Notes under the pieces: generated by a model
What the model was told of the DNA's origin: nothing
The model's input: the letters and a program-made list of their open reading frames with translations, nothing else
Database searches by the model: none
DNA from: Candidatus Saccharimonadales bacterium
GTDB taxonomy: Bacteria; Patescibacteriota; Saccharimonadia; UBA4664; DATIHN01
DNA length: 64,000 nucleotides
NCBI GenBank assembly: GCA_035480635.1
Contig: DATIHN010000016.1
Span: 76,017-140,016 of the forward strand
Direction of reading: 5' to 3'
Program-made: the position numbers and the translations under genes
Shown here: positions 1,906 to 61,060 of the stretch, piece after piece
Position numbering within the stretch: position 1 is the first letter of the stretch
Layout: each line of letters begins with the position of its first letter

Positions 1906-2595
1906 TTATTTTTTGGCGTAGTCGGCTAGAGCTTGTTCGGCCGCCATTTGTTGCGCGGCCTGTTTGCTGGATCCTGTCCCCTTGCCCAGCATTTTCTTGC
2001 CAACGTAGACACCGACCACGAAGGTTTTATCGTGATCGGGCCCGCTCTCATCTAGAACCTTATAAGCTGGCGTGATGCCGTCATGATCTTGGGCCATTTC
2101 CTGAAACTTGCTTTTGGCATCGACCCAAGTACCGGTTTTGAGAATCCCGGGCAACTGAGCAATCATGTTCTTAGCAATGAAGTCGGCGGCGGCATCGTAG
2201 CCTTGGTCAAGATAAATGGCTCCAATAATAGCTTCGGTGGCATTAGCCGAAATTAACATTCGACTGCGATCATTGCCCTTGGTTTCGCCGCGACTAAGCT
2301 TCATAAAGTTCATCACCCCCAACTCCTCGGCCACAGCCGCCAGCGACTCAGTTTTTACCAGAGCGCTGCGCCAGTTGGTTAGATCCCCTTCTGGATTTTC
2401 ATAATTACGATACAGATGGTCGGTAACGACTAATTCCAGCACGGCATCGCCCAAAAATTCCAAGCGTTCGTTGTGCTCTAAACCCAGTTTAGGGTGTTCA
2501 TTTAAATATGAGCGATGAATGAAGGCCCGTTCTAATAATTTGGGGTCATTGAACTTCAACCCTAAAACGGCTTCGAACTCAGACACATCAGTCAT
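1906..2595 (-). CDS. rnc: ribonuclease III
   Basis: RNase III signature ERLEFLGDAVLELVV. C-terminal dsRBD-like region with KKxAEQxAA. Confidence 0.9.
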   Translation of the reverse strand: MTDVSEFEAVLGLKFNDPKLLERAFIHRSYLNEHPKLGLEHNERLEFLGDAVLELVVTDHLYRNYENPEGDLTNWRSALVKTESLAAVAEELGVMNFMKLSRGETKGNDRSRMLISANATEAIIGAIYLDQGYDAAADFIAKNMIAQLPGILKTGTWVDAKSKFQEMAQDHDGITPAYKVLDESGPDHDKTFVVGVYVGKKMLGKGTGSSKQAAQQMAAEQALADYAKK

Positions 2596-3071
2596 GATTT
2601 TAATTTCTCCAATCCCATCCGAAAGAGCTTTTCGGTGTCCTTGTACTCAATTAGTTTTAGGGCTTCCTCAGACTTAAACCACTTAACGTCGATGATGCCT
2701 TCGCTATCGCCCATTTTAAGGTCATTTGTGTTTTTGGTGGCTTCAGTTAGAAATACGCTAGTGGTCATAAAGATCAGCTTACCGGCCCGACGGTAAAAAA
2801 AGTAGATGTTGTCTAGTTTGTGGCGAATTTTGAGGTGCTTTAAGCCGGTTTCTTCGCCGATTTCGCGCAAGGCCGTTTGCTCCAGCTTTTCGCCTTTTTC
2901 GACGTGGCCTTTCGGAATTGTCCAGCGGCCCTTGTGGTCTTGGATCATCAAAATCTCGAGCTCGCTACCGCGGCCACGATAAACCACCCCGCCGGCGGTG
3001 AATTCGCGCACCGCCCTACTTGGCTGGGTCTGAGTTGGCTGCTTTGGCTTGATGGTCTTCTTCTGGTTCAT
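2592..3071 (-). CDS. NUDIX hydrolase (start uncertain; the long ORF extends to 3287 but overlaps nusB)
   Basis: Nudix box [18 protein letters not shown] (GX5EX7REUXEEXGU). ATG at 3071 (MNQKKT...) chosen to limit overlap with nusB. A GTG at 3012 is an alternative start. Confidence 0.6.
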
Positions 3072-3498
3072 AGAAATCACTCTGGCGATAAATAGTACCG
3101 AGTACTCCGTTGACAAATTTGCTGGAATTTTCGCCCCCAAAGGCCTTGGCCAGCTCCACGGCCTCATTGATGGCCACTTTGGGCGGCACATCGCGCTTAA
3201 AGCACAATTCGTAAACTCCGATTCGCAAAACGATTTTATCGATTTTGGCAATTTGATCGACCGGCCACTCTGGTGCTGCCGGGCCAATCATGGCATCGAT
3301 GTTGTCTTGCTCTTTCAATACTCCCTGAACAATATCGTGGACGAAGTCTGTATCGTCGATGGCATTGGAAAATTCGCCCAGGTTGCGCTCTAGGATGGGG
3401 GCTAACACAACATCCTTTTCCTCGCTAGCGGCCCGAAAGTCATACTCGTAGAGTGTTTGCATCGCCACAATTCGGCCGAGATGACGATTGGATGCCAT
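3016..3498 (-). CDS. nusB: transcription antitermination factor NusB
   Basis: 160-aa ORF. NusB-like helical protein ([20 protein letters not shown]...) with typical length and position near rpmF/yceD. Confidence 0.8.
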
Positions 3499-3653
3499 TA
3501 TTTGTTCTTAAGAAGCCCCAATTTGGCGGCCCGCACCAGGCGATGCGGCAGGGCAACACCAGCCACCATCACAAGTTGCGGTTGCTTGAGTGCGTCGTGA
3601 CTGCGGCGTTGGCCCTTGGTACTATTGGTCGTTCGTTTCTTTGGAACTGCCAT
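3498..3653 (-). CDS. rpmF: 50S ribosomal protein L32
   Basis: Not in the ORF track because it is under 60 aa. Reverse-complement translation [51 protein letters not shown] is canonical L32. It sits directly downstream of yceD, as is typical. Confidence 0.85.
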
Positions 3654-4141
3654 TACGGTCCTTTCTTGATTCTTGGTCTATTCCCTAGTTCTTGAATTTC
3701 GTGTTTGTGGTCTTTGGTTTGGCGTTGACCACATTCGGTACACAAGCCGGCGCAATCAGTGCTACAAAGCTGCTGAATCGGGATACTTACCAAAGCCTCT
3801 TGGCGCAACAGCGGCGTTAGATCAATTTCGCCTCGGCGCGTTATCGGCCATTCATCCTCACCTGGATTTAAGTTAAAGAGCCCGGTCAAATTCACTTGAG
3901 CCTGATGCTCGTAGGTATCCAAACAACGGTAGCATTCCAATTTAAAGACCAAATCGGCGCTGCCTTTGAGCGCTAGCCCCTCATCCAATTTGGTCAAACT
4001 GAATTGGCCGCTAACCGGTTGTGAGAGTTCAAGATCTGGGATGTTAGGGTACTCCCCCTCAATCGTGAAATCGGTGCTGGCACCGACATCACCAGCCAAG
4101 ATGTGACTTACATTTATGTGCATGTGCACTCTTAGCGCCAA
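3653..4141 (-). CDS. yceD: YceD/DUF177 family protein (large-subunit rRNA accumulation protein)
   Basis: 162-aa ORF with CxxC...CxxC pairs (CYRCLD ... CAGLCTECGQ). Conserved yceD-rpmF gene order. Confidence 0.75.
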   Translation of the reverse strand: MALRVHMHINVSHILAGDVGASTDFTIEGEYPNIPDLELSQPVSGQFSLTKLDEGLALKGSADLVFKLECYRCLDTYEHQAQVNLTGLFNLNPGEDEWPITRRGEIDLTPLLRQEALVSIPIQQLCSTDCAGLCTECGQRQTKDHKHEIQELGNRPRIKKGP

Positions 4142-4231: not shown

Positions 4232-4678
4232 TCAGGAGACCTGACCTTCGTCTTCGGAGCCAACGGGTTTTCTGACTTGGGCTGGTGATCTTGGAGTTCT
4301 GGTGGACGCACCTTTCTCATAATCTAATACCTTCATACCACCTTCCACTGGTTTTACATTCTTGTCCTTCGAGGAATCATCTGTAAAATCAACGCCGAAC
4401 TTTGCTATATCACCAGATGCCTCGCCCATCTCCTTTTTAATTTGTTCAGCACTTTCTCCACGTTCGACCATTCTCTGCCCCACATTTTCTGCTAACTGGC
4501 TGGCTCTTTCGGCATAAGTTCCTGCCGCATTAGACCACTCAGCCATTTCTCGCCGTCTGGCTTCAGCCTCGGGACCACTGGCCTTTGCCACTTCTTCCAT
4601 AGCCTTGAACTTTGATTCATCAGGACTACCACTGGTAACCTCTTCTCCTTCAGGACCTGGCCCATCTTCTGCACCCAT
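4232..4678 (-). CDS. hypothetical acidic, low-complexity protein
   Basis: 148-aa ORF rich in E, G and A. No recognisable motif. Confidence 0.45.
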   Translation of the reverse strand: MGAEDGPGPEGEEVTSGSPDESKFKAMEEVAKASGPEAEARRREMAEWSNAAGTYAERASQLAENVGQRMVERGESAEQIKKEMGEASGDIAKFGVDFTDDSSKDKNVKPVEGGMKVLDYEKGASTRTPRSPAQVRKPVGSEDEGQVS

Positions 4679-4721: not shown

Positions 4722-7616
4722 TTACTTTATCACAAAGTTAACCAGTTTGCGGGGCACTACAATGGTTTTAGCGATTTGTTTGCCCTCAAGATGCCGAGCG
4801 ACGTTTTCAAGTTCGGCAGCGGCTTTTTTGAGGTCATCTTCATTTATTGCAGGATCAATCGTTAATGTAGCTCGGAGTTTACCATTAACTTGGACCGGGA
4901 CTTCGATTAATTCTAGGCGGACGTACTTTTCATCATACTTAGGCCAGGTGCTAACGTGCACGCTTTCGGTGCCGCCTAGCTGCTCCCATAATTCCTCGGC
5001 CACGAAGGGGGCGAAAGGTGCCAGCAGCTGCACCAAAGTGTTGAGAGCGGTGGCCCAGGCGTCATGGGCATCGGCAAACGGCAAATCAACTTTCAATTTA
5101 TAGAGTTCGTTGGTTAGCTCCATTAATGCTGCTACAGCCGTGTTGAAGCTAAAGCTGCCAATGTCGTCCGTAACTTTCTTGATGGTGCGATGGGTGGCCG
5201 ACTGCAAAGCCGTTTCTAGTTCGGTCTTTGAACTACCTGAACCTACCTTAATCTCATCAAATTCCTGTACCAGTGCCCAGACTCGTTTGATAAAGCGTTG
5301 CGCACCATCTATGCCATTAGGGTTCCAGTCGACATTTTGGTTATAGGGCCCAATAAATAACTCATAGATGCGTAAGGCATCGGCGCCGTAACCTTGCTCG
5401 GTAATATCATCAGGCGTCACTACATTACCGTAGCGCTTACCCATTTTTCGGCCGTCGGCCCCACCAATCAGACCCTGGTTGCGCAGCTGTTTGAACGGTT
5501 CCTGGAAATTGATCAGGCCTTCATCGGCTAGAACCTTGGTCCAGAACCTGGCATAGAGCAAGTGGGCCACGGCATGCTCGACCCCACCCACGTAGGTATC
5601 AACCGGCAGCCAGTAGTTAGCAAGCTCTGGTTCAAAAGGGGCTTTGTCGTTGTGGGGGTCAGCGAAGCGTAAAAAGTACCAGCTACTATCCACGAACGTA
5701 TCCATAGTGTCGGTTTCGCGTTTGGCTGGCCCAGCACATTTTGGACATTTGGTGTTAACAAATGATTCGACCTTGGCTAGTGGCGATTGACCGCTGCCGT
5801 CAGGCAAATAGTCTTTGACTTCCGGCAGAATAACTGGCAAATCAGCTTCTGGCACTGGCACCGTGCCGCAGTTGTCGCAATAGATAATTGGAATCGGTGC
5901 GCCCCAATAACGCTGGCGGCTGATGAGCCAATCGCGCATGCGGTAATTGGTGTTAGCTTCAGCCTGGTTTTGCTTAGCCAAGAACTCAGTAATGGCTGGC
6001 CTGGCTTCGGATGAGCTCAAACCATCAAATTCGCCGGAATTATACAGAATGCCATCGCCTGTCCAAGGTTTAGCCAGAACAAACTTATCGTAGGCATAAC
6101 GATGGAGGTCGTCATGAACCTTGCTACCAGCTTCTGCCACACTTAGCCATTCAACTTTGAACTTACCGTGCTCATCGGGCTCGAGTTTTTGACCACTTTG
6201 TTCGGTGTTCTCTAGTTCAAAATAGAAGGCAATGGCATCAATTGAACGGGCCACCTTTTTAGAGTGAGCAAAGTAGTTATGATGAATGGTTTCTGATTGG
6301 CTAATTAACTTCAAGTTCTTGTAGCCAGTCTCCTCGGCCACCTCGCGCCTGGCCGTTTGTTCGGGATCTTCATCCTCATCGATCCCCCCACCGACAAAGA
6401 GGTTGCCCCCACTACCGTCACCCCAGTTAATCGAGAGAAGTTTTTTGGTTTTAGGATCCCGCACCACTGCTACAATACTTCGGCGGTGTTCCGGGTTTTC
6501 CTGCGGCGTGCCTGTGACAGGCTCAATTGAAGTTTTTAATGGGATATCGTATTTGCTAGCAAACTCAACGTCTCGCTCATCATGACCGTCACCAAAAACC
6601 GCACCCGTACCATAGCCTGGCAAAACAAAATCGGCTAACCAAATTGGCAACTTCTCATTATTAACTGGGTTGATAGCGTAGCTGCCGGTAAAGACGCCGG
6701 TTTTTTCCCGATCGGTTTCCATGCGCTGAATGTCCGATTCAACGGCGGCTGCCTTCTGGTAAGACTCAACTGCCTTTTTCTGAGTCGGCGTGGTCAGTTT
6801 TTGAACCATTGGATGCTCGGGGGCTAAAACCAGGAACGTAGCACTGTAAATCGTATCAATCCTGGTGGTGAATACTTCGATTGCCTCTTTTGAGCTCTCA
6901 ACCTTAAACTTGACCTTCGCTCCATGACTGCGACCAATCCAGTTGACCTGCATGGCTTTGATATTTTCGGGCCAGTCAATGTTTGCAAGATCATCCAACA
7001 AGCGATCAGCATAATCGGTGATTTTGAAGAACCATTGATTCAAACGGCGCTTCTCGACCTCGTGCCCACAGCGTTCGCAGACGTTTTTGGTACCGTCTTT
7101 AATAACTTGCTCGTTGGCGAGCACAGTTTTATCCTGCGGACACCAATTAACGCTAGCTTCGGCCTTGTAGGCTAAATCTCGATGATAAAACTTCAGAAAC
7201 AGCCATTGAGTCCAGCGATAATAATCGGGTTGGGCAGTATTGATTTCGCGCGACCAGTCGTAGCTGATACCAACGGCCGAAATTTGCTGCTTGAATGCGG
7301 CGATGTTTTTGGCTGTTGATTCGGCCGGTGACGTACCGGTTTTAATCGCAAAGTTTTCGGCCGGCAGGCCAAAGGCATCCCAACCCATGGGGTGGAGAAC
7401 ATTGAATCCCTGCATGCGTTTAAAACGGGCGTGGGCATCGGAAATAACATAGTTTCGAACATGGCCAACGTGCATGGTCTCACCGGATGGGTAGGGAAAC
7501 ATTTCGAGCTCATAAAACTTAGCTTTGGCTGGATTTTGATCCGCCTGATAGAGCTTAGTATCATCCCAAACTTTGGCCCACTTGGCTTCAACTTCGGCTG
7601 GTATATACTGCTTCAT
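4722..7616 (-). CDS. leuS: leucyl-tRNA synthetase with an inserted NUDIX-hydrolase domain in the editing region
   Basis: HVGH class-I motif near the N-terminus and a KMGKR (KMSKS-like) motif. The CP1/editing region is recognisable (GTGAVFGDGHDERDVEFASKY ... YNSGEFDGL). An extra ~140-aa domain with a perfect Nudix box GGGIDEDEDPEQTARREVAEETGY lies between them. 964 aa in one uninterrupted frame. Confidence 0.92.
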   Translation of the reverse strand: MKQYIPAEVEAKWAKVWDDTKLYQADQNPAKAKFYELEMFPYPSGETMHVGHVRNYVISDAHARFKRMQGFNVLHPMGWDAFGLPAENFAIKTGTSPAESTAKNIAAFKQQISAVGISYDWSREINTAQPDYYRWTQWLFLKFYHRDLAYKAEASVNWCPQDKTVLANEQVIKDGTKNVCERCGHEVEKRRLNQWFFKITDYADRLLDDLANIDWPENIKAMQVNWIGRSHGAKVKFKVESSKEAIEVFTTRIDTIYSATFLVLAPEHPMVQKLTTPTQKKAVESYQKAAAVESDIQRMETDREKTGVFTGSYAINPVNNEKLPIWLADFVLPGYGTGAVFGDGHDERDVEFASKYDIPLKTSIEPVTGTPQENPEHRRSIVAVVRDPKTKKLLSINWGDGSGGNLFVGGGIDEDEDPEQTARREVAEETGYKNLKLISQSETIHHNYFAHSKKVARSIDAIAFYFELENTEQSGQKLEPDEHGKFKVEWLSVAEAGSKVHDDLHRYAYDKFVLAKPWTGDGILYNSGEFDGLSSSEARPAITEFLAKQNQAEANTNYRMRDWLISRQRYWGAPIPIIYCDNCGTVPVPEADLPVILPEVKDYLPDGSGQSPLAKVESFVNTKCPKCAGPAKRETDTMDTFVDSSWYFLRFADPHNDKAPFEPELANYWLPVDTYVGGVEHAVAHLLYARFWTKVLADEGLINFQEPFKQLRNQGLIGGADGRKMGKRYGNVVTPDDITEQGYGADALRIYELFIGPYNQNVDWNPNGIDGAQRFIKRVWALVQEFDEIKVGSGSSKTELETALQSATHRTIKKVTDDIGSFSFNTAVAALMELTNELYKLKVDLPFADAHDAWATALNTLVQLLAPFAPFVAEELWEQLGGTESVHVSTWPKYDEKYVRLELIEVPVQVNGKLRATLTIDPAINEDDLKKAAAELENVARHLEGKQIAKTIVVPRKLVNFVIK

Positions 7617-11081: not shown

Positions 11082-11157
<76 letters not shown>

Positions 11158-15536: not shown

Positions 15537-15612
15537 TGGTGGAGCCGGGGAGACTCGAACTCCCTGCCTCAGCAATGCGAATGCTGCGCTCTACCGGGTG
15601 AGCTACGGCCCC
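15537..15612 (-). tRNA. tRNA-Ala (anticodon CGC)
   Basis: Reverse complement GGGGCCGTAGCTCACCCGGTAGAGCGCAGCATTCGCATTGCTGAGGCAGGGAGTTCGAGTCTCCCCGGCTCCACCA. G3:U70 pair, anticodon loop UUCGCAU, encoded CCA. Confidence 0.9.
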
Positions 15613-60984: not shown

Positions 60985-61060
60985 TGGTGACCCCAGCGGG
61001 ATTCGAACCCGCGTTGCCACATTGAAAGCGTGGAGTCCTGAACCACTAGACGATGGGGCC
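60985..61060 (-). tRNA. tRNA-Glu (anticodon TTC)
   Basis: Reverse complement GGCCCCATCGTCTAGTGGTTCAGGACTCCACGCTTTCAATGTGGCAACGCGGGTTCGAATCCCGCTGGGGTCACCA. Anticodon loop CUUUCAA. T-arm GCGGG-TTCGAAT-CCCGC. Encoded CCA. Confidence 0.85.

What the first reader, a model, noticed from the sequence alone, without database searches (positions are those of the whole stretch)
4722..7616. LeuS with an in-frame NUDIX hydrolase domain inserted into the editing (CP1) region
The 964-aa leuS ORF is about 100-140 aa longer than typical bacterial LeuRS. The extra segment, roughly residues 380-520, lies between the conserved editing-domain motifs …GTGAVFGDGHDERDVEFASKY… and …YNSGEFDGL…. It contains a complete Nudix box GGGIDEDEDPEQTARREVAEETGY, which matches GX5EX7REUXEEXGU exactly, flanked by the expected beta-strand-like sequence. 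A Nudix pyrophosphohydrolase domain embedded in an aminoacyl-tRNA synthetase is unusual. It could hydrolyse mis-activated aminoacyl-adenylates or Ap4A-type by-products, or act as a moonlighting domain. A separate stand-alone NUDIX gene also sits at 2592-3071 in this window.
Basis: partly seen in the sequence, partly recalled or inferred. Interest (0 to 1): 0.65.

Follow-up and report, generated by a model that had tools for sequence, protein, structure and literature searches.

The report
LeuRS carrying an inserted Nudix domain
The leucyl-tRNA synthetase of this Saccharibacteria genome really does carry a complete Nudix hydrolase domain, apparently catalytically intact, spliced into a surface loop of its proofreading domain; the same architecture occurs in hundreds of small-genome bacterial species and I found no paper describing it, but its substrate is unknown.

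Summary
Its HIGH and KMSKS-type motifs and its CP1 editing motifs are intact. Residues 377-515 are a clean 139-aa insertion between T. thermophilus LeuRS residues 373 and 375. This insert is a Pfam NUDIX domain (E 4.8e-18) with an exact Nudix box, and AlphaFold2 folds it on its own (pLDDT 93).

It is not an assembly artefact. An identical protein is in NCBI, and about 119 of the 120 closest LeuRS carry the same insert. At least 510 GTDB species genomes encode this Nudix type. The 80 loci kept are labelled Saccharibacteria, Parcubacteria or gut Bacilli/Tenericutes; several of the last group have a T-box leader upstream.

The insert diverges no faster than the rest of LeuRS (48% versus 49% mean identity), and its key residues are essentially invariant.

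Related LeuRS carry 2-3 Nudix copies, a second insertion site, or added Ham1, HAD, serine-hydrolase or ASCH domains. Stand-alone CP1::Nudix proteins also exist, including one in a DPANN archaeon.

No curated Nudix subfamily threshold is met. My best reading is an active small-molecule nucleotide pyrophosphohydrolase (ApnA/NTP-like) using LeuRS as a scaffold. A tRNA-end-directed role is not excluded. I rate it a new variant of a known kind.

The parts
4722..7616 (-). leuS::nudix ORF, 964 aa plus stop. It is a complete bacterial leucyl-tRNA synthetase with an internal Nudix domain.
   Evidence: ORF list and translation. TIGR00396 scores 1037 bits against a cutoff of 548. It is 100% identical to P0014, labelled Candidatus Saccharimonadales bacterium. 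The AF2 model has pLDDT 88 and superposes on Tt 2BTE and Ec 4AQ7 with TMt 0.85-0.86.
6942..7616 (-). N-terminal half of the Rossmann catalytic domain (res 1-225), including the HIGH motif HVGH (res 49-52, nt 7461-7472).
   Evidence: PF00133 matches res 13-227. H49 is invariant, and H52 is conserved in 62 of 65 sequences. Coordinates were verified.
6489..6941 (-). CP1 editing domain, first part (res 226-376). It contains the T-rich motif TTRIDT (res 250-255, nt 6852-6869) and HDERD with the editing Asp (res 345-349, nt 6570-6584).
   Evidence: PF13603 matches res 225-372 at profile positions 2-148. T251, D254, T255, D346 and D349 are invariant in 65 sequences; R252 is conserved in 64 of 65.
6072..6488 (-). 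Inserted Nudix hydrolase domain (res 377-515).
   Evidence: PF00293 matches with E 4.8e-18. There is no counterpart in Tt LeuRS, where it falls between residues 373 and 375, and it is absent from relative P0111. AF2 on the insert alone gives pLDDT 93.4. The best Foldseek match is 2AZW, E 1.4e-10, TM 0.75-0.80. GC is 0.482 against 0.494 for the rest of the gene.
6321..6389 (-). Nudix box GGIDEDEDPEQTARREVAEETGY (res 410-432), the metal-binding catalytic motif.
   Evidence: It matches GX5EX7REUXEEXGU exactly. It is at least 90% conserved in alignment A1, which was not selected on the box.
6258..6284 (-). Subfamily motif HHNYFAHSK (res 445-453) in the 'X-loop'. Y448 lies 16 residues after the end of the box.
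   Evidence: Y448 is conserved in 64 of 65 sequences and K453 in 65 of 65. PMC5389931 describes a specificity loop about 17 aa downstream of the box and a Tyr there that coincides with ApnA hydrolase activity.
5949..6071 (-). CP1 editing domain, last part (res 516-556), which resumes immediately after the insert (…GDGILYNSGEFDGL…).
   Evidence: The alignment to Tt LeuRS resumes at query 516 paired with Tt 375. G522 and S527 are invariant.
5337..5948 (-). Second half of the catalytic domain (res 557-760), with the KMSKS-type loop KMGKR (res 724-728, nt 5433-5447). The leucine-specific domain is missing.
   Evidence: Tt residues 578-637 have no counterpart in the query. K724 is conserved in 64 of 65 sequences and K727 in 65 of 65. 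Coordinates were verified.
4722..5336 (-). Anticodon-binding helical domain and C-terminal domain (res 761-964, plus stop).
   Evidence: PF08264 matches res 806-925.
2592..3071 (-). Separate stand-alone Nudix gene (160 aa) between nusB and rnc. It belongs to a different Nudix subfamily and is not part of the LeuRS feature.
   Evidence: PF00293 matches with E 6.8e-19. It has an ATG start. It is only 31% identical over 87 aa to the insert. Its neighbours are NusB and RNase III.

Best explanation
**Shown.**
- This is the organism's genuine LeuRS, with intact aminoacylation motifs and intact CP1 post-transfer editing motifs.
- A surface loop late in CP1 (between Thermus residues 373 and 375) has acquired an autonomously folding Nudix domain of 139 aa.
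- The insertion is old. It is co-inherited with the enzyme, diverges no faster than the rest of LeuRS, and is widespread in Patescibacteria (Saccharibacteria, Parcubacteria) and in a clade of low-GC gut Bacilli/Tenericutes MAGs.

**Inferred.**
- The domain is a catalytically active, Mg-dependent pyrophosphohydrolase. Its metal-binding Nudix box and a set of subfamily-specific residues are essentially invariant.
- Its substrate is most likely a small nucleotide of the ApnA or (d)NTP / NDP-X type, that is, a 'house-cleaning' activity.
- LeuRS serves mainly as a permissive, constitutively expressed scaffold. The Nudix chemistry is not mechanistically part of aminoacylation or editing.
- The CP1 periphery of LeuRS in these reduced genomes is an accretion hotspot. 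Relatives carry 2-3 Nudix copies, a second insertion site, and added Ham1/ITPase, HAD phosphatase, serine-hydrolase and ASCH domains.
For: **Identity and integrity of LeuRS**
- TIGR00396 scores 1037 bits.
- HIGH, KMSKS-type, T-rich and HDxRD residues are invariant or nearly so.
- The model superposes on the Tt and Ec LeuRS-tRNA complexes.

**Clean insertion of a true Nudix fold**

**Catalytic competence**
- The box is exact.
- In A1, a set not selected on the box, G410, E416, R424, E425, E428, E429 and G431 are at least 90% conserved.
- Residues outside the search pattern (W398, G410, E416, R424, Y448, K453, E482, W490, H505) are conserved in 64-65 of 65 sequences.

**Constraint and co-inheritance**
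- Mean pairwise identity is 48.0% for the insert and 49.1% for the body. Insert and body identities correlate (Pearson 0.64).

**Breadth**
- At least 510 species genomes carry this Nudix type. All 80 loci kept match the window LeuRS by BLASTP. 64 of them hold a reading frame of 930-1060 aa; the shorter ones mostly run off contig ends, and L030 is only 157 aa.
- T-box leaders lie upstream in 7 of 12 Bacilli-labelled loci.

**Scaffold / house-cleaning reading**
- Related LeuRS carry Ham1 (P0208, six cluster members from independent assemblies), HAD_2 and Ser_hydrolase, and ASCH or Ser_hydrolase at another site.
- Copy number ranges from 1 to 3, and there are two Nudix insertion sites.
- Free-standing relatives of 160-190 aa exist. 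They sit in a (HAD_2)-Nudix-Cupin-DUF4015 neighbourhood, not next to leuS.

**Substrate class**
- The Tyr at +16 lies in the X-loop.
- The best single-sequence PDB matches are Ap4A hydrolases 1F3Y and 3I7U.
- Structural neighbours after 2AZW are RppH (including its Ap4A complex 7SP3), NudB and human Ap4A hydrolase.
Against: - **No enzymatic data.** No curated Nudix subfamily threshold is met: NudB 46 bits against a cutoff of 103, RppH 28 against 116, MutT 22 against 148. The closest solved structure, 2AZW, has no known function. The substrate class is therefore a weak inference.
- **Signs against a pure 'passive scaffold'.** Within the best 150 representatives, every multi-domain protein in which my scan recognised a partner had LeuRS or CP1 segments; about a dozen others have partners it did not recognise. 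The same subfamily is found at two different sites that both flank CP1. Stand-alone proteins keep CP1 and Nudix together without the rest of LeuRS; one lies directly upstream of an insert-less leuS, and another is in a DPANN archaeon. These facts suggest a functional or structural dependence on CP1 specifically.
- **Geometry untested.** I could not obtain model coordinates, so the position of the Nudix active site relative to the editing pocket and the tRNA ends is unknown.
- **Selection bias.** The 65-sequence set was retrieved with the peptide pattern E[IV]xEETGYx[ND]. Conservation of E425-Y432 in that set is by construction.
Confidence: 0.5

Rival explanations
1. **tRNA-end-directed Nudix.** CP1 binds the 3'-CCA end of tRNA(Leu) and so presents the acceptor end to the neighbouring Nudix domain. 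The Nudix would then act like RppH on an RNA terminus. It might remove a 5'-triphosphate or diphosphate, or an NAD/Np4N cap. It might instead remove a 3'-pyrophosphate of the kind added by toxic RelA/SpoT-homologue enzymes. That would make it a built-in tRNA end repair or quality-control activity.
For: - RppH is among the closest structural neighbours: several RppH-RNA complexes at E about 3e-8 to 2e-7 and TM 0.61-0.67. RppH models are the recurrent weak NCBIfam hits for the insert and its free relatives.
- In every case where a fusion partner could be recognised it was LeuRS or CP1. The domain is found at two sites flanking CP1, and it persists with CP1 alone in stand-alone proteins.
- Short linkers with moderate to high pLDDT (block means 86-91) suggest a fixed orientation on CP1.
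Against: - RppH family scores are far below threshold: 28 bits against a cutoff of 116.
- Two or three Nudix copies in one LeuRS, and co-inserted Ham1 and HAD small-molecule hydrolases, are hard to rationalise for an RNA-end enzyme.
- Free-standing relatives sit in metabolic-looking neighbourhoods, not tRNA-related ones.
- Mature tRNA 5' ends are monophosphates after RNase P processing (established knowledge).
- The geometry is untested.
Confidence: 0.2
2. **Nudix coupled to LeuRS's own chemistry.** The domain would destroy by-products of the synthetic site. The candidates are Ap4A/Ap3A, formed when ATP attacks Leu-AMP, or mis-activated adenylates. This would keep local dinucleotide alarmone levels low or assist pre-transfer editing.
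For: - A conserved Tyr lies 16 residues after the box, a position that coincides with ApnA hydrolase activity.
- Ap4A hydrolases are the top single-sequence PDB hits, and human Ap4A hydrolase and RppH-Ap4A are among the fold neighbours.
- aaRS are the classical source of Ap4A (established knowledge).
Against: - The similarity to Ap4A hydrolases is weak: E 5.5e-4 and 3.8e-3.
- The insert sits in the editing domain, not at the synthetic site.
- Nudix enzymes cleave pyrophosphate bonds, not the acyl-phosphate of aminoacyl-adenylates (family knowledge).
- This explanation does not account for stand-alone CP1::Nudix proteins, which have no synthetic site, or for co-inserted Ham1 and HAD domains.
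- From memory, LeuRS is not among the strongest Ap4A producers.
Confidence: 0.15
3. **Non-catalytic role.** The Nudix fold would serve as an extra RNA-binding or ligand-sensing module, or merely as a structural buttress of CP1, without hydrolysing anything.
For: - Non-enzymatic Nudix-fold domains exist; the review PMC5389931 lists non-enzymatic classes.
- A few relatives have a substituted box Arg: P0063 R to A and P0022 R to K.
Against: - The metal-binding Glu residues and the whole box are conserved across sequences only about 48% identical overall. Non-catalytic Nudix domains typically lose them.
- P0111 shows that LeuRS of this clade can exist without the insert.
Confidence: 0.07
4. **Artefact or coincidence.** The ORF would be an assembly or sequencing chimera, or the segment would be an ordinary lineage-specific CP1 loop with a fortuitous Nudix-like motif.
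For: None found.
Against: - Pfam E is 4.8e-18, and the fold is confirmed.
- An identical protein is in NCBI, and about 119 of the 120 nearest LeuRS from NCBI, JGI, ENA and Logan assemblies share the architecture.
- At least 510 species genomes carry it.
- There is no compositional break: GC 0.482 against 0.494.
Confidence: 0.01

Closest known systems
Canonical bacterial LeuRS (T. thermophilus 1H3N/2BYT/2BTE; E. coli 4AQ7/4ARC)
   Same: - The domain order is the same: Rossmann catalytic core, CP1 editing domain, KMSKS-type loop, anticodon-binding domain and C-terminal domain.
- HIGH, T-rich and HDxRD editing residues are conserved.
- By sequence the match to 1H3N has E 1.3e-249. The model superposes with TMt 0.85-0.86.
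   Different: - A 139-aa Nudix domain is inserted between the equivalents of Thermus residues 373 and 375 in CP1.
- The ~60-aa leucine-specific domain (Tt 578-637) is absent.
- KMSKS reads KMGKR.
2AZW, the Enterococcus faecalis MutT/Nudix family protein (structural genomics, function undetermined)
   Same: It is the best match both by profile (E 3.5e-8 over nearly the full length, including the C-terminal H-containing helix) and by fold (E 1.4e-10, TM 0.75-0.80).
   Different: It is only 18% identical. It is free-standing, not inserted in another protein. Its function is unknown, so it gives no substrate assignment.
RppH / ApnA-hydrolase / NudB group of Nudix enzymes (E. coli RppH 4S2X/7SP3, human NUDT2 4IJX, lupin 1F3Y, E. 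coli NudB 2O1C)
   Same: - The fold is the same, and these are the next-best structural and sequence neighbours.
- The Tyr in the X-loop is at +16.
   Different: - All curated family scores are far below threshold.
- The insert has its own subfamily motifs (SINWG, HHxYFAHSK, ExGKFxVEWL, DELH).
- It is covalently embedded in CP1.
Class Ia aaRS with an embedded enzyme domain: NCBIfam NF040702 'isoleucine--tRNA ligase, N-acetyltransferase domain-containing'
   Same: It is a precedent showing that a class Ia synthetase can carry an unrelated enzymatic domain. The family is listed among the hits.
   Different: It has a different synthetase (IleRS) and a different passenger (GNAT). I did not examine its insertion site or distribution.
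Free-standing trans-editing factors (AlaX, YbaK/ProX; general knowledge) as an analogy for the stand-alone CP1::Nudix proteins
   Same: Both are editing-domain homologues encoded as separate small proteins. P0002 and its relatives are CP1 plus Nudix without a synthetase body.
   Different: - CP1-derived free proteins carrying a Nudix were not found in the literature I searched.
- Their editing residues are partly degenerate. For example, the T-rich motif reads VERLET in P0002, and the editing Asp is G or A in P0003 and P0005.

Membership tests
Bacterial leucyl-tRNA synthetase (TIGR00396 leuS_bact) | Whole-protein score above the curated equivalog cutoff | tested here: met
   1037.3 bits against a cutoff of 548.4, in three stretches interrupted by the insert.
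Bacterial leucyl-tRNA synthetase (TIGR00396 leuS_bact) | Class I signature motifs HIGH and KMSKS | tested here: met
   HVGH is at res 49-52 and KMGKR at res 724-728. H49 and K727 are invariant; H52 is conserved in 62 of 65 sequences and K724 in 64 of 65.
Bacterial leucyl-tRNA synthetase (TIGR00396 leuS_bact) | CP1 editing domain with the T-rich motif and the conserved editing Asp | tested here: met
   PF13603 matches with E 1.1e-57. TTRIDT is at res 250-255 and HDERD at res 345-349. T251, D254, T255, D346 and D349 are invariant in 65 sequences; R252 is conserved in 64 of 65.
Bacterial leucyl-tRNA synthetase (TIGR00396 leuS_bact) | Leucylation of tRNA(Leu) and hydrolysis of mischarged tRNA | not testable with these tools
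   This needs biochemistry. Indirect support: in the Bacilli-labelled clade the orthologous gene lies downstream of a T-box leader.
Nudix hydrolase superfamily (Pfam PF00293) | Domain score above the Pfam gathering threshold | tested here: met
   65.9 bits against 21.1, E 4.8e-18, res 377-507, profile positions 2-129 of 134.
Nudix hydrolase superfamily (Pfam PF00293) | Nudix box GX5EX7REUXEEXGU | tested here: met
   Res 410-432 read GGIDEDEDPEQTARREVAEETGY, an exact match. The box is at least 90% conserved in A1.
Nudix hydrolase superfamily (Pfam PF00293) | Alpha/beta/alpha Nudix fold | tested here: met
   AF2 on the insert alone gives pLDDT 93.4 and pTM 0.88. Foldseek against the PDB returns 547 matches at E <= 0.001, and the 50 listed are all Nudix-family proteins; the best is 2AZW at TM 0.75-0.80.
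Nudix hydrolase superfamily (Pfam PF00293) | Divalent-cation-dependent hydrolysis of a nucleoside diphosphate linked to X | not testable with these tools
   This needs an enzyme assay.
ApnA (diadenosine polyphosphate) hydrolase subgroup of Nudix | Conserved Tyr in the loop about 16-18 residues downstream of the box (Dunn 1999, as summarised in PMC5389931) | tested here: met
   Y448 is 16 residues after Y432 and is conserved in 64 of 65 sequences. The exact 16-18 spacing is from memory; the review gives 'approximately 17'.
ApnA (diadenosine polyphosphate) hydrolase subgroup of Nudix | Significant full-length similarity to characterised Ap4A hydrolases | tested here: inconclusive
   1F3Y gives E 5.5e-4 and 3I7U gives 3.8e-3, covering about 55-70 residues around the box. 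With the profile, 1F3Y gives 2.2e-6 but ranks below 2AZW, NudB and AvrM14.
RNA pyrophosphohydrolase RppH (NCBIfam PRK00714 models) | Score above the curated cutoff | tested here: not met
   28.4 bits against a cutoff of 116.
Dihydroneopterin triphosphate diphosphatase NudB (NF006961) | Score above the curated cutoff | tested here: not met
   46 bits against a cutoff of 103, although the alignment spans profile positions 7-146 of 151.
8-oxo-dGTP diphosphatase MutT (NF008044 / TIGR00586) | Score above the curated cutoff | tested here: not met
   22 bits against 148, and 20 bits against 97.9.

The most novel reading that the evidence does not exclude
CP1 and the Nudix domain form one functional unit that works on the acceptor end of tRNA. 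CP1 captures the CCA end, and the Nudix removes an aberrant (pyro)phosphate-linked group. That group could be a 3'-pyrophosphate installed by toxic alarmone-synthetase homologues, or a 5'-triphosphate or NpnN/NAD cap. The synthetase would then carry a second, previously unknown kind of tRNA proofreading or repair. The stand-alone CP1::Nudix proteins, including those in DPANN archaea, would be trans-acting versions of the same activity.
Probability: 0.15. Interest if true: 0.9.

Novelty: new variant of a known kind. Interest (0 to 1): 0.68.

Why it matters
1. **Undescribed in the literature I searched.** An essential translation enzyme in hundreds of uncultured species carries an apparently active second enzyme. 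These species include Saccharibacteria (a group that, from general knowledge, includes human oral and gut members) and gut Bacilli. Eight full-text searches found no paper describing a LeuRS-Nudix fusion.
2. **LeuRS as a domain-accretion platform.** The wider pattern found here shows how reduced genomes may package housekeeping hydrolases. It includes 1-3 Nudix copies, two Nudix insertion sites, co-inserted Ham1, HAD, serine-hydrolase and ASCH domains, and free CP1::Nudix proteins in bacteria and in a DPANN archaeon. These variants offer natural experiments on CP1 tolerance.
3. **Annotation errors.** Public records name these proteins 'class I tRNA ligase family protein', 'NUDIX domain-containing protein' or 'RdgB/HAM1 family ... 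pyrophosphatase'. Automated reconstructions may therefore score leuS as missing.
4. **Drug relevance.** From general knowledge, CP1 is the target of benzoxaborole antibiotics. A large domain grafted next to the editing pocket could alter drug access or tRNA handling.
5. **If the Nudix acts on tRNA ends.** That would be a new class of synthetase-linked RNA quality control.

Tried and rejected
**Explanations rejected**
- *Assembly chimera or fortuitous motif.* Rejected.
- *The neighbouring stand-alone Nudix (2592-3071) is the donor or a paralogue of the insert.* Rejected. It is 31% identical over only 87 aa around the box, and its best family hits differ.
- *Free-standing homologues are encoded next to leuS.* Not found for P0010, P0011 or P0012, which share a (HAD_2)-Nudix-Cupin_2-DUF4015 neighbourhood. 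It holds only for the unnamed 164-aa Nudix beside P0004. No DNA was available for that locus, so I could not compare it.
- *The Bacilli/Tenericutes labels are mislabelled Saccharibacteria.* Argued against. T-box leaders lie upstream of leuS, the DNA is very AT-rich, and these sequences form a separate clade. Labels such as 'Gammaproteobacteria' and 'Muribaculaceae' on sequences that cluster with Patescibacteria or Bacilli look unreliable, and I did not use them.

**Analyses that led nowhere**
- *Assigning a curated Nudix subfamily.* No NCBIfam model reaches its cutoff. PDB sequence and fold searches give an uncharacterised protein as the best match.
- *Resolving the history of site A, site B, free and CP1-only Nudix copies with a distance tree.* The tree is poorly resolved and the classes interleave. 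Only the grouping of P0001-P0004 with window-type domains is usable.
- *Cluster look-ups for organism names.* Look-ups for P0117 and others returned no names.
- *ASCH-like segment of P0208.* It gave no Pfam hit.

Full report
**1. The observation**

The ORF at 4722..7616 is real, starts with ATG and encodes 964 aa.

The Nudix box is G410-GIDED-E416-DPEQTAR-R424-E425-V-A-E428-E429-T-G431-Y432. This is an exact match to GX5EX7REUXEEXGU.

Pfam finds five families:
- tRNA-synt_1, the class I catalytic domain.
- tRNA-synt_1g, an overlapping class I catalytic-domain model.
- The LeuRS editing domain PF13603, at res 225-372, matching only profile positions 2-148 of 185.
- NUDIX PF00293, at res 377-507, with E 4.8e-18 and 65.9 bits against a gathering score of 21.1.
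- The anticodon-binding domain.

The NCBIfam equivalog for bacterial LeuRS scores 1037 bits against a cutoff of 548, in three stretches.

Against T. thermophilus LeuRS (1H3N), query 1-376 aligns to Tt 1-373 and query 516-717 aligns to Tt 375-577. Residues 377-515 are therefore a clean 139-aa insertion at a single point of CP1.

The same alignment shows that this enzyme lacks the ~60-aa leucine-specific domain of Thermus. Tt 578-637 has no counterpart, which partly offsets the extra length.

**2. It is not an artefact**

- The protein is 100% identical to an NCBI entry from a 'Candidatus Saccharimonadales bacterium' MAG (P0014).
- About 119 of the 120 best LeuRS relatives (53-72% identity, 946-984 aa, from NCBI, JGI, ENA and Logan assemblies) carry PF00293.
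- A 43-sequence alignment shows the insert at the same position in all but one. The exception, P0111 (812 aa), goes straight from '…LPIKQVIE' to 'GGEGVMTNSG…'.
- The insert's base composition matches the rest of the gene: GC 0.482 against 0.494.

**3. Fold and catalytic competence**

AlphaFold2 models the full-length protein with pLDDT 88. The insert is well ordered, and its linkers are short and modelled with moderate to high confidence (about 6 and 9 residues, block means 86-91). The full-length model superposes on the Thermus and E. coli LeuRS-tRNA complexes with TMt 0.85-0.86.

The insert alone gives pLDDT 93.4 and pTM 0.88, with the strand and helix order of a Nudix fold. Foldseek against the PDB returns 547 matches at E <= 0.001, and the 50 listed are all Nudix-family proteins.

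In alignment A1, which was assembled from a whole-protein search and so was not selected on the box, G410, E416, R424, E425, E428, E429, G431 and Y432 are at least 90% conserved. The rare exceptions are R to A in P0063 and R to K in P0022.

I also examined 65 full-length sequences from GTDB species genomes.
- Residues outside the retrieval pattern (W398, G410, E416, R424, Y448, K453, E482, W490, H505) are conserved in 64-65 of 65.
- The LeuRS residues T250/T251/R252/D254/T255, D346/D349, H49/H52 and K724/K727 are conserved as well.
- One caveat applies. Those loci were retrieved with the peptide pattern E[IV]xEETGYx[ND], so conservation of E425-Y432 in that set is by construction.
- Mean pairwise identity is 48.0% in the insert and 49.1% in the LeuRS body, and the two are correlated (Pearson 0.64).

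The insert is thus no more divergent than the enzyme itself, and it has largely co-diverged with it.

**4. Distribution**

Of these, 510 encode a relative of the insert.

All 80 loci kept match the window LeuRS by BLASTP. In the near-full-length ones a single alignment runs through the insert. 64 of them hold a reading frame of 930-1060 aa; the shorter ones mostly run off contig ends, and L030 is only 157 aa.

Record titles name Saccharibacteria and Saccharimonadia. They also name Parcubacteria-type groups: Paceibacterota, Giovannonibacteria, Taylorbacteria and Minisyncoccia. A large set of gut MAGs from rabbit, goat, sheep, mouse and human is labelled Bacilli, Tenericutes, Mycoplasmatota or Bacillota, and these come from several independent studies.

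In a neighbour-joining tree of the LeuRS body, the Bacilli/Tenericutes group forms its own clade. Seven of the twelve such loci tested have a T-box leader (94-125 bits) 350-500 nt upstream of leuS. None of four Patescibacteria loci has one, and neither does the window. The DNA of L063 is very AT-rich.

I take this as good evidence that the architecture exists in two unrelated reduced-genome lineages. In the Bacilli it is the T-box-regulated housekeeping leuS. Labels such as 'Gammaproteobacteria' or 'Muribaculaceae' on sequences that cluster with the others look unreliable.

**5.

(a) *A LeuRS-associated Nudix subfamily.* A profile of the insert, searched against 1.84 billion representatives, finds 93 proteins at E <= 1e-30 and 410 at E <= 1e-10. 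I mapped the best 150 with a Nudix HMM and with segments of the window LeuRS. Every multi-domain protein in which a partner was recognised carried LeuRS or CP1 segments. About a dozen proteins of 250-470 aa have partners the scan did not recognise, and about 26 are free proteins of roughly 160-190 aa.

(b) *Copy number and sites vary.*
- The standard form has one Nudix at 'site B', the CP1 loop used in this window.
- Tandem pairs occur at site B (P0021, P0024, P0149, P0150, P0194).
- A second site, 'site A', lies just before the T-rich motif. It holds one or two Nudix domains.
- Site A can be occupied alone (P0192, P0246, P0263) or together with site B (P0138-P0140). Some proteins have three Nudix domains in all (P0134, P0135).

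(c) *Other hydrolase domains are grafted into LeuRS of the same lineages.*
- A Ham1/ITPase domain lies before the anticodon domain in P0208. Its cluster has six members from independent assemblies and is labelled Paceibacterota.
- HAD_2 is found in P0272 and Ser_hydrolase in P0268.
- ASCH (P0032) and Ser_hydrolase (P0062, P0183, P0191) occur at site A.

(d) *Stand-alone CP1::Nudix proteins of about 270-350 aa exist* (P0001-P0004, P0147, P0154, P0157, P0179, P0207, P0244 and others).
- P0002 is a discrete gene in the closed 874,869-bp genome CP066684.1, labelled Aenigmatarchaeota. It lies between a topoisomerase gene and a LamG-domain gene, in a region that also encodes fibrillarin.
- P0004 lies between a 164-aa Nudix gene and a complete 804-aa leuS without the insert.
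- P0005 is a truncated copy in an archaeal-looking context.
- In these proteins the Nudix box is intact, while the CP1 editing residues are partly degenerate. For example, P0002 has VERLET in place of TTRPDT, and the editing Asp is G in P0003 and A in P0005.
- In a weakly resolved domain tree, P0001-P0004 group with window-type site-B domains. This suggests they derive from a LeuRS::Nudix gene.

(e) *Free-standing relatives.* P0010-P0012 (40-42% identical to the insert) are not next to leuS. They share a (HAD_2)-Nudix-Cupin_2-DUF4015-ABC neighbourhood.

**6. What the Nudix does**

No curated subfamily is met: NudB 46 bits against a cutoff of 103, RppH 28 against 116, MutT 22 against 148.

The closest solved structure by profile and by fold is 2AZW from E. 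faecalis. Its function is undetermined (PMC5389931). The next neighbours are RppH (including its Ap4A complex), NudB, ADP-ribose pyrophosphatase, AvrM14 and human Ap4A hydrolase. With the single sequence, the best PDB hits are the lupin and Aquifex Ap4A hydrolases, but only weakly (E 5.5e-4 and 3.8e-3).

Y448 lies 16 residues after the box, in the 'X-loop'. The review locates specificity determinants there, and a Tyr there coincides with ApnA activity.

My best-supported reading has these parts:
- The domain is an active pyrophosphohydrolase. This is inferred from conservation and is not shown.
- Its substrate is a small nucleotide of the ApnA, NTP or NDP-X class.
- LeuRS acts as a permissive scaffold.

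The scaffold idea rests on three observations:
- Classic house-cleaning domains (Ham1, HAD) are co-grafted into related LeuRS.
- Nudix copy number and insertion position vary.
- Free-standing relatives exist in metabolic-looking neighbourhoods.

Three observations argue against a purely passive scaffold and keep a CP1- or tRNA-coupled role alive:
- Wherever a fusion partner could be recognised, it was LeuRS or CP1.
- The Nudix occurs at two sites that both flank CP1.
- CP1::Nudix persists as an independent protein.

Nudix enzymes cleave pyrophosphate linkages.

**7. Comparison with what is known, and novelty**

The LeuRS part passes all testable membership features, and so does the Nudix superfamily part. 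The ApnA-hydrolase subgroup is only suggested. RppH, NudB and MutT membership is not met.

Eight full-text searches returned no paper describing a LeuRS-Nudix fusion. They combined Nudix with leucyl-tRNA synthetase, LeuRS/CP1, aminoacyl-tRNA synthetase, Saccharibacteria, Patescibacteria and CPR. The large Nudix review does not mention tRNA synthetases. The library is incomplete, so absence there is not proof.

The architecture is visible in public databases but named inconsistently: 'class I tRNA ligase family protein', 'NUDIX domain-containing protein', 'RdgB/HAM1 family…'.

An NCBIfam model for an IleRS with an embedded GNAT domain (listed) is a precedent for this general phenomenon.

I classify the finding as a new variant of a known kind: two known families in a combination I found no paper describing, widespread and apparently functional.

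**8. Verdict**

- The structural interpretation is supported.
- The function is open. My estimates are: small-molecule house-cleaning or ApnA-type hydrolase on a LeuRS scaffold, about 0.5; tRNA-end-directed activity, about 0.2; coupling to LeuRS by-products, about 0.15; non-catalytic role, about 0.07.
- Interest is 0.68. A specialist would find the breadth, the multi-copy and multi-domain LeuRS variants and the free CP1::Nudix proteins surprising, and the function is directly testable.

Noticed in passing
L001 8001-8864 (P0002, closed genome CP066684.1); also P0004, whose locus has no DNA held; P0005 at L084 2587-3132: Stand-alone proteins of about 270-350 aa consist only of a bacterial-type LeuRS CP1 domain with the same Nudix insert. 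One is in a DPANN (Aenigmatarchaeota-labelled) archaeon. One lies directly between a 164-aa Nudix gene and an insert-less 804-aa leuS. Their Nudix box is intact, but the CP1 editing residues are partly degenerate.
   Followed up: partly
Related proteins P0134, P0135, P0137-P0140, P0149, P0150, P0192, P0194, P0021, P0024: Some LeuRS carry two or three Nudix domains of the same subfamily. A second insertion site lies just before the T-rich editing motif. It is used alone or together with the CP1-loop site seen in the window.
   Followed up: partly
Related proteins P0208/P0282 (Ham1 at 984-1167), P0272 (HAD_2), P0268 (Ser_hydrolase), P0032 (ASCH at 251-342), P0062/P0183/P0191 (Ser_hydrolase at about 240-440): LeuRS of Patescibacteria-type lineages also carry other grafted hydrolase domains in addition to the Nudix: Ham1/ITPase, HAD phosphatase, serine hydrolase and ASCH. 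LeuRS looks like a domain-accretion hotspot.
   Followed up: partly
L063 2367-2549; also L082, L068, L067, L081, L064, L078 at similar positions: T-box leaders lie upstream of leuS::nudix in AT-rich gut MAGs labelled Bacilli/Tenericutes, with a small ORF between leader and leuS in L063. None occurs in the Patescibacteria loci or the window. This implies the fused gene is the regulated housekeeping leuS of a second phylum.
   Followed up: partly
window 5337-5948 (res 557-760), specifically res 717-728: This LeuRS lacks the ~60-aa leucine-specific domain present in Thermus (Tt 578-637), and its KMSKS loop reads KMGKR.
   Followed up: no
window 6570-6605 (res 338-349, GTGAVFG-DGHDERD): The window LeuRS and a subclade (P0019, P0047, P0052, P0065, P0083, P0119) have a one-residue deletion and read 'VFG/VFA-D[GA]HD' where most relatives have 'IMAVPAHD', just before the editing Asp motif. 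The AF2 model is least confident here (res 336-338, pLDDT below 50).
   Followed up: no
window 2592-3071 (-), with nusB at 3016-3498 and rnc at 1906-2595: A separate 160-aa Nudix gene overlaps the 3' end of nusB by 56 nt and the start of rnc (RNase III) by 4 nt. It belongs to a different Nudix subfamily from the LeuRS insert, and its position suggests an RNA-related role.
   Followed up: partly
L087 3612-4103, L089 5001-5495, L091 5001-5570: Free-standing relatives of the insert (P0010-P0012) share a conserved neighbourhood of (HAD_2 hydrolase)-Nudix-Cupin_2-DUF4015-ABC transporters, downstream of pyruvate kinase. HAD_2 is also one of the domains grafted into some LeuRS.
   Followed up: no
P0111 (812 aa), alignment A1: One LeuRS is 63% identical to the window protein over aligned columns, as close as many insert-bearing relatives, yet lacks the Nudix entirely. 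This suggests secondary loss and shows the enzyme can do without the insert.
   Followed up: no
Database names of P0014, P0025, P0282: Public annotation of these LeuRS is inconsistent: 'class I tRNA ligase family protein', 'NUDIX domain-containing protein', 'RdgB/HAM1 family non-canonical purine NTP pyrophosphatase'. Automated surveys could therefore score leuS as absent.
   Followed up: no
window 11085-11157, 15540-15612, 60988-61060 (all minus): The only Rfam matches in the window at gathering thresholds are three tRNA genes. No T-box or other leader lies upstream of leuS.
   Followed up: no
window 4232-4678 (-): A 148-aa ORF immediately downstream of leuS has no Pfam match. It lies between leuS and a YceD-family gene (3653-4141).
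   Followed up: no
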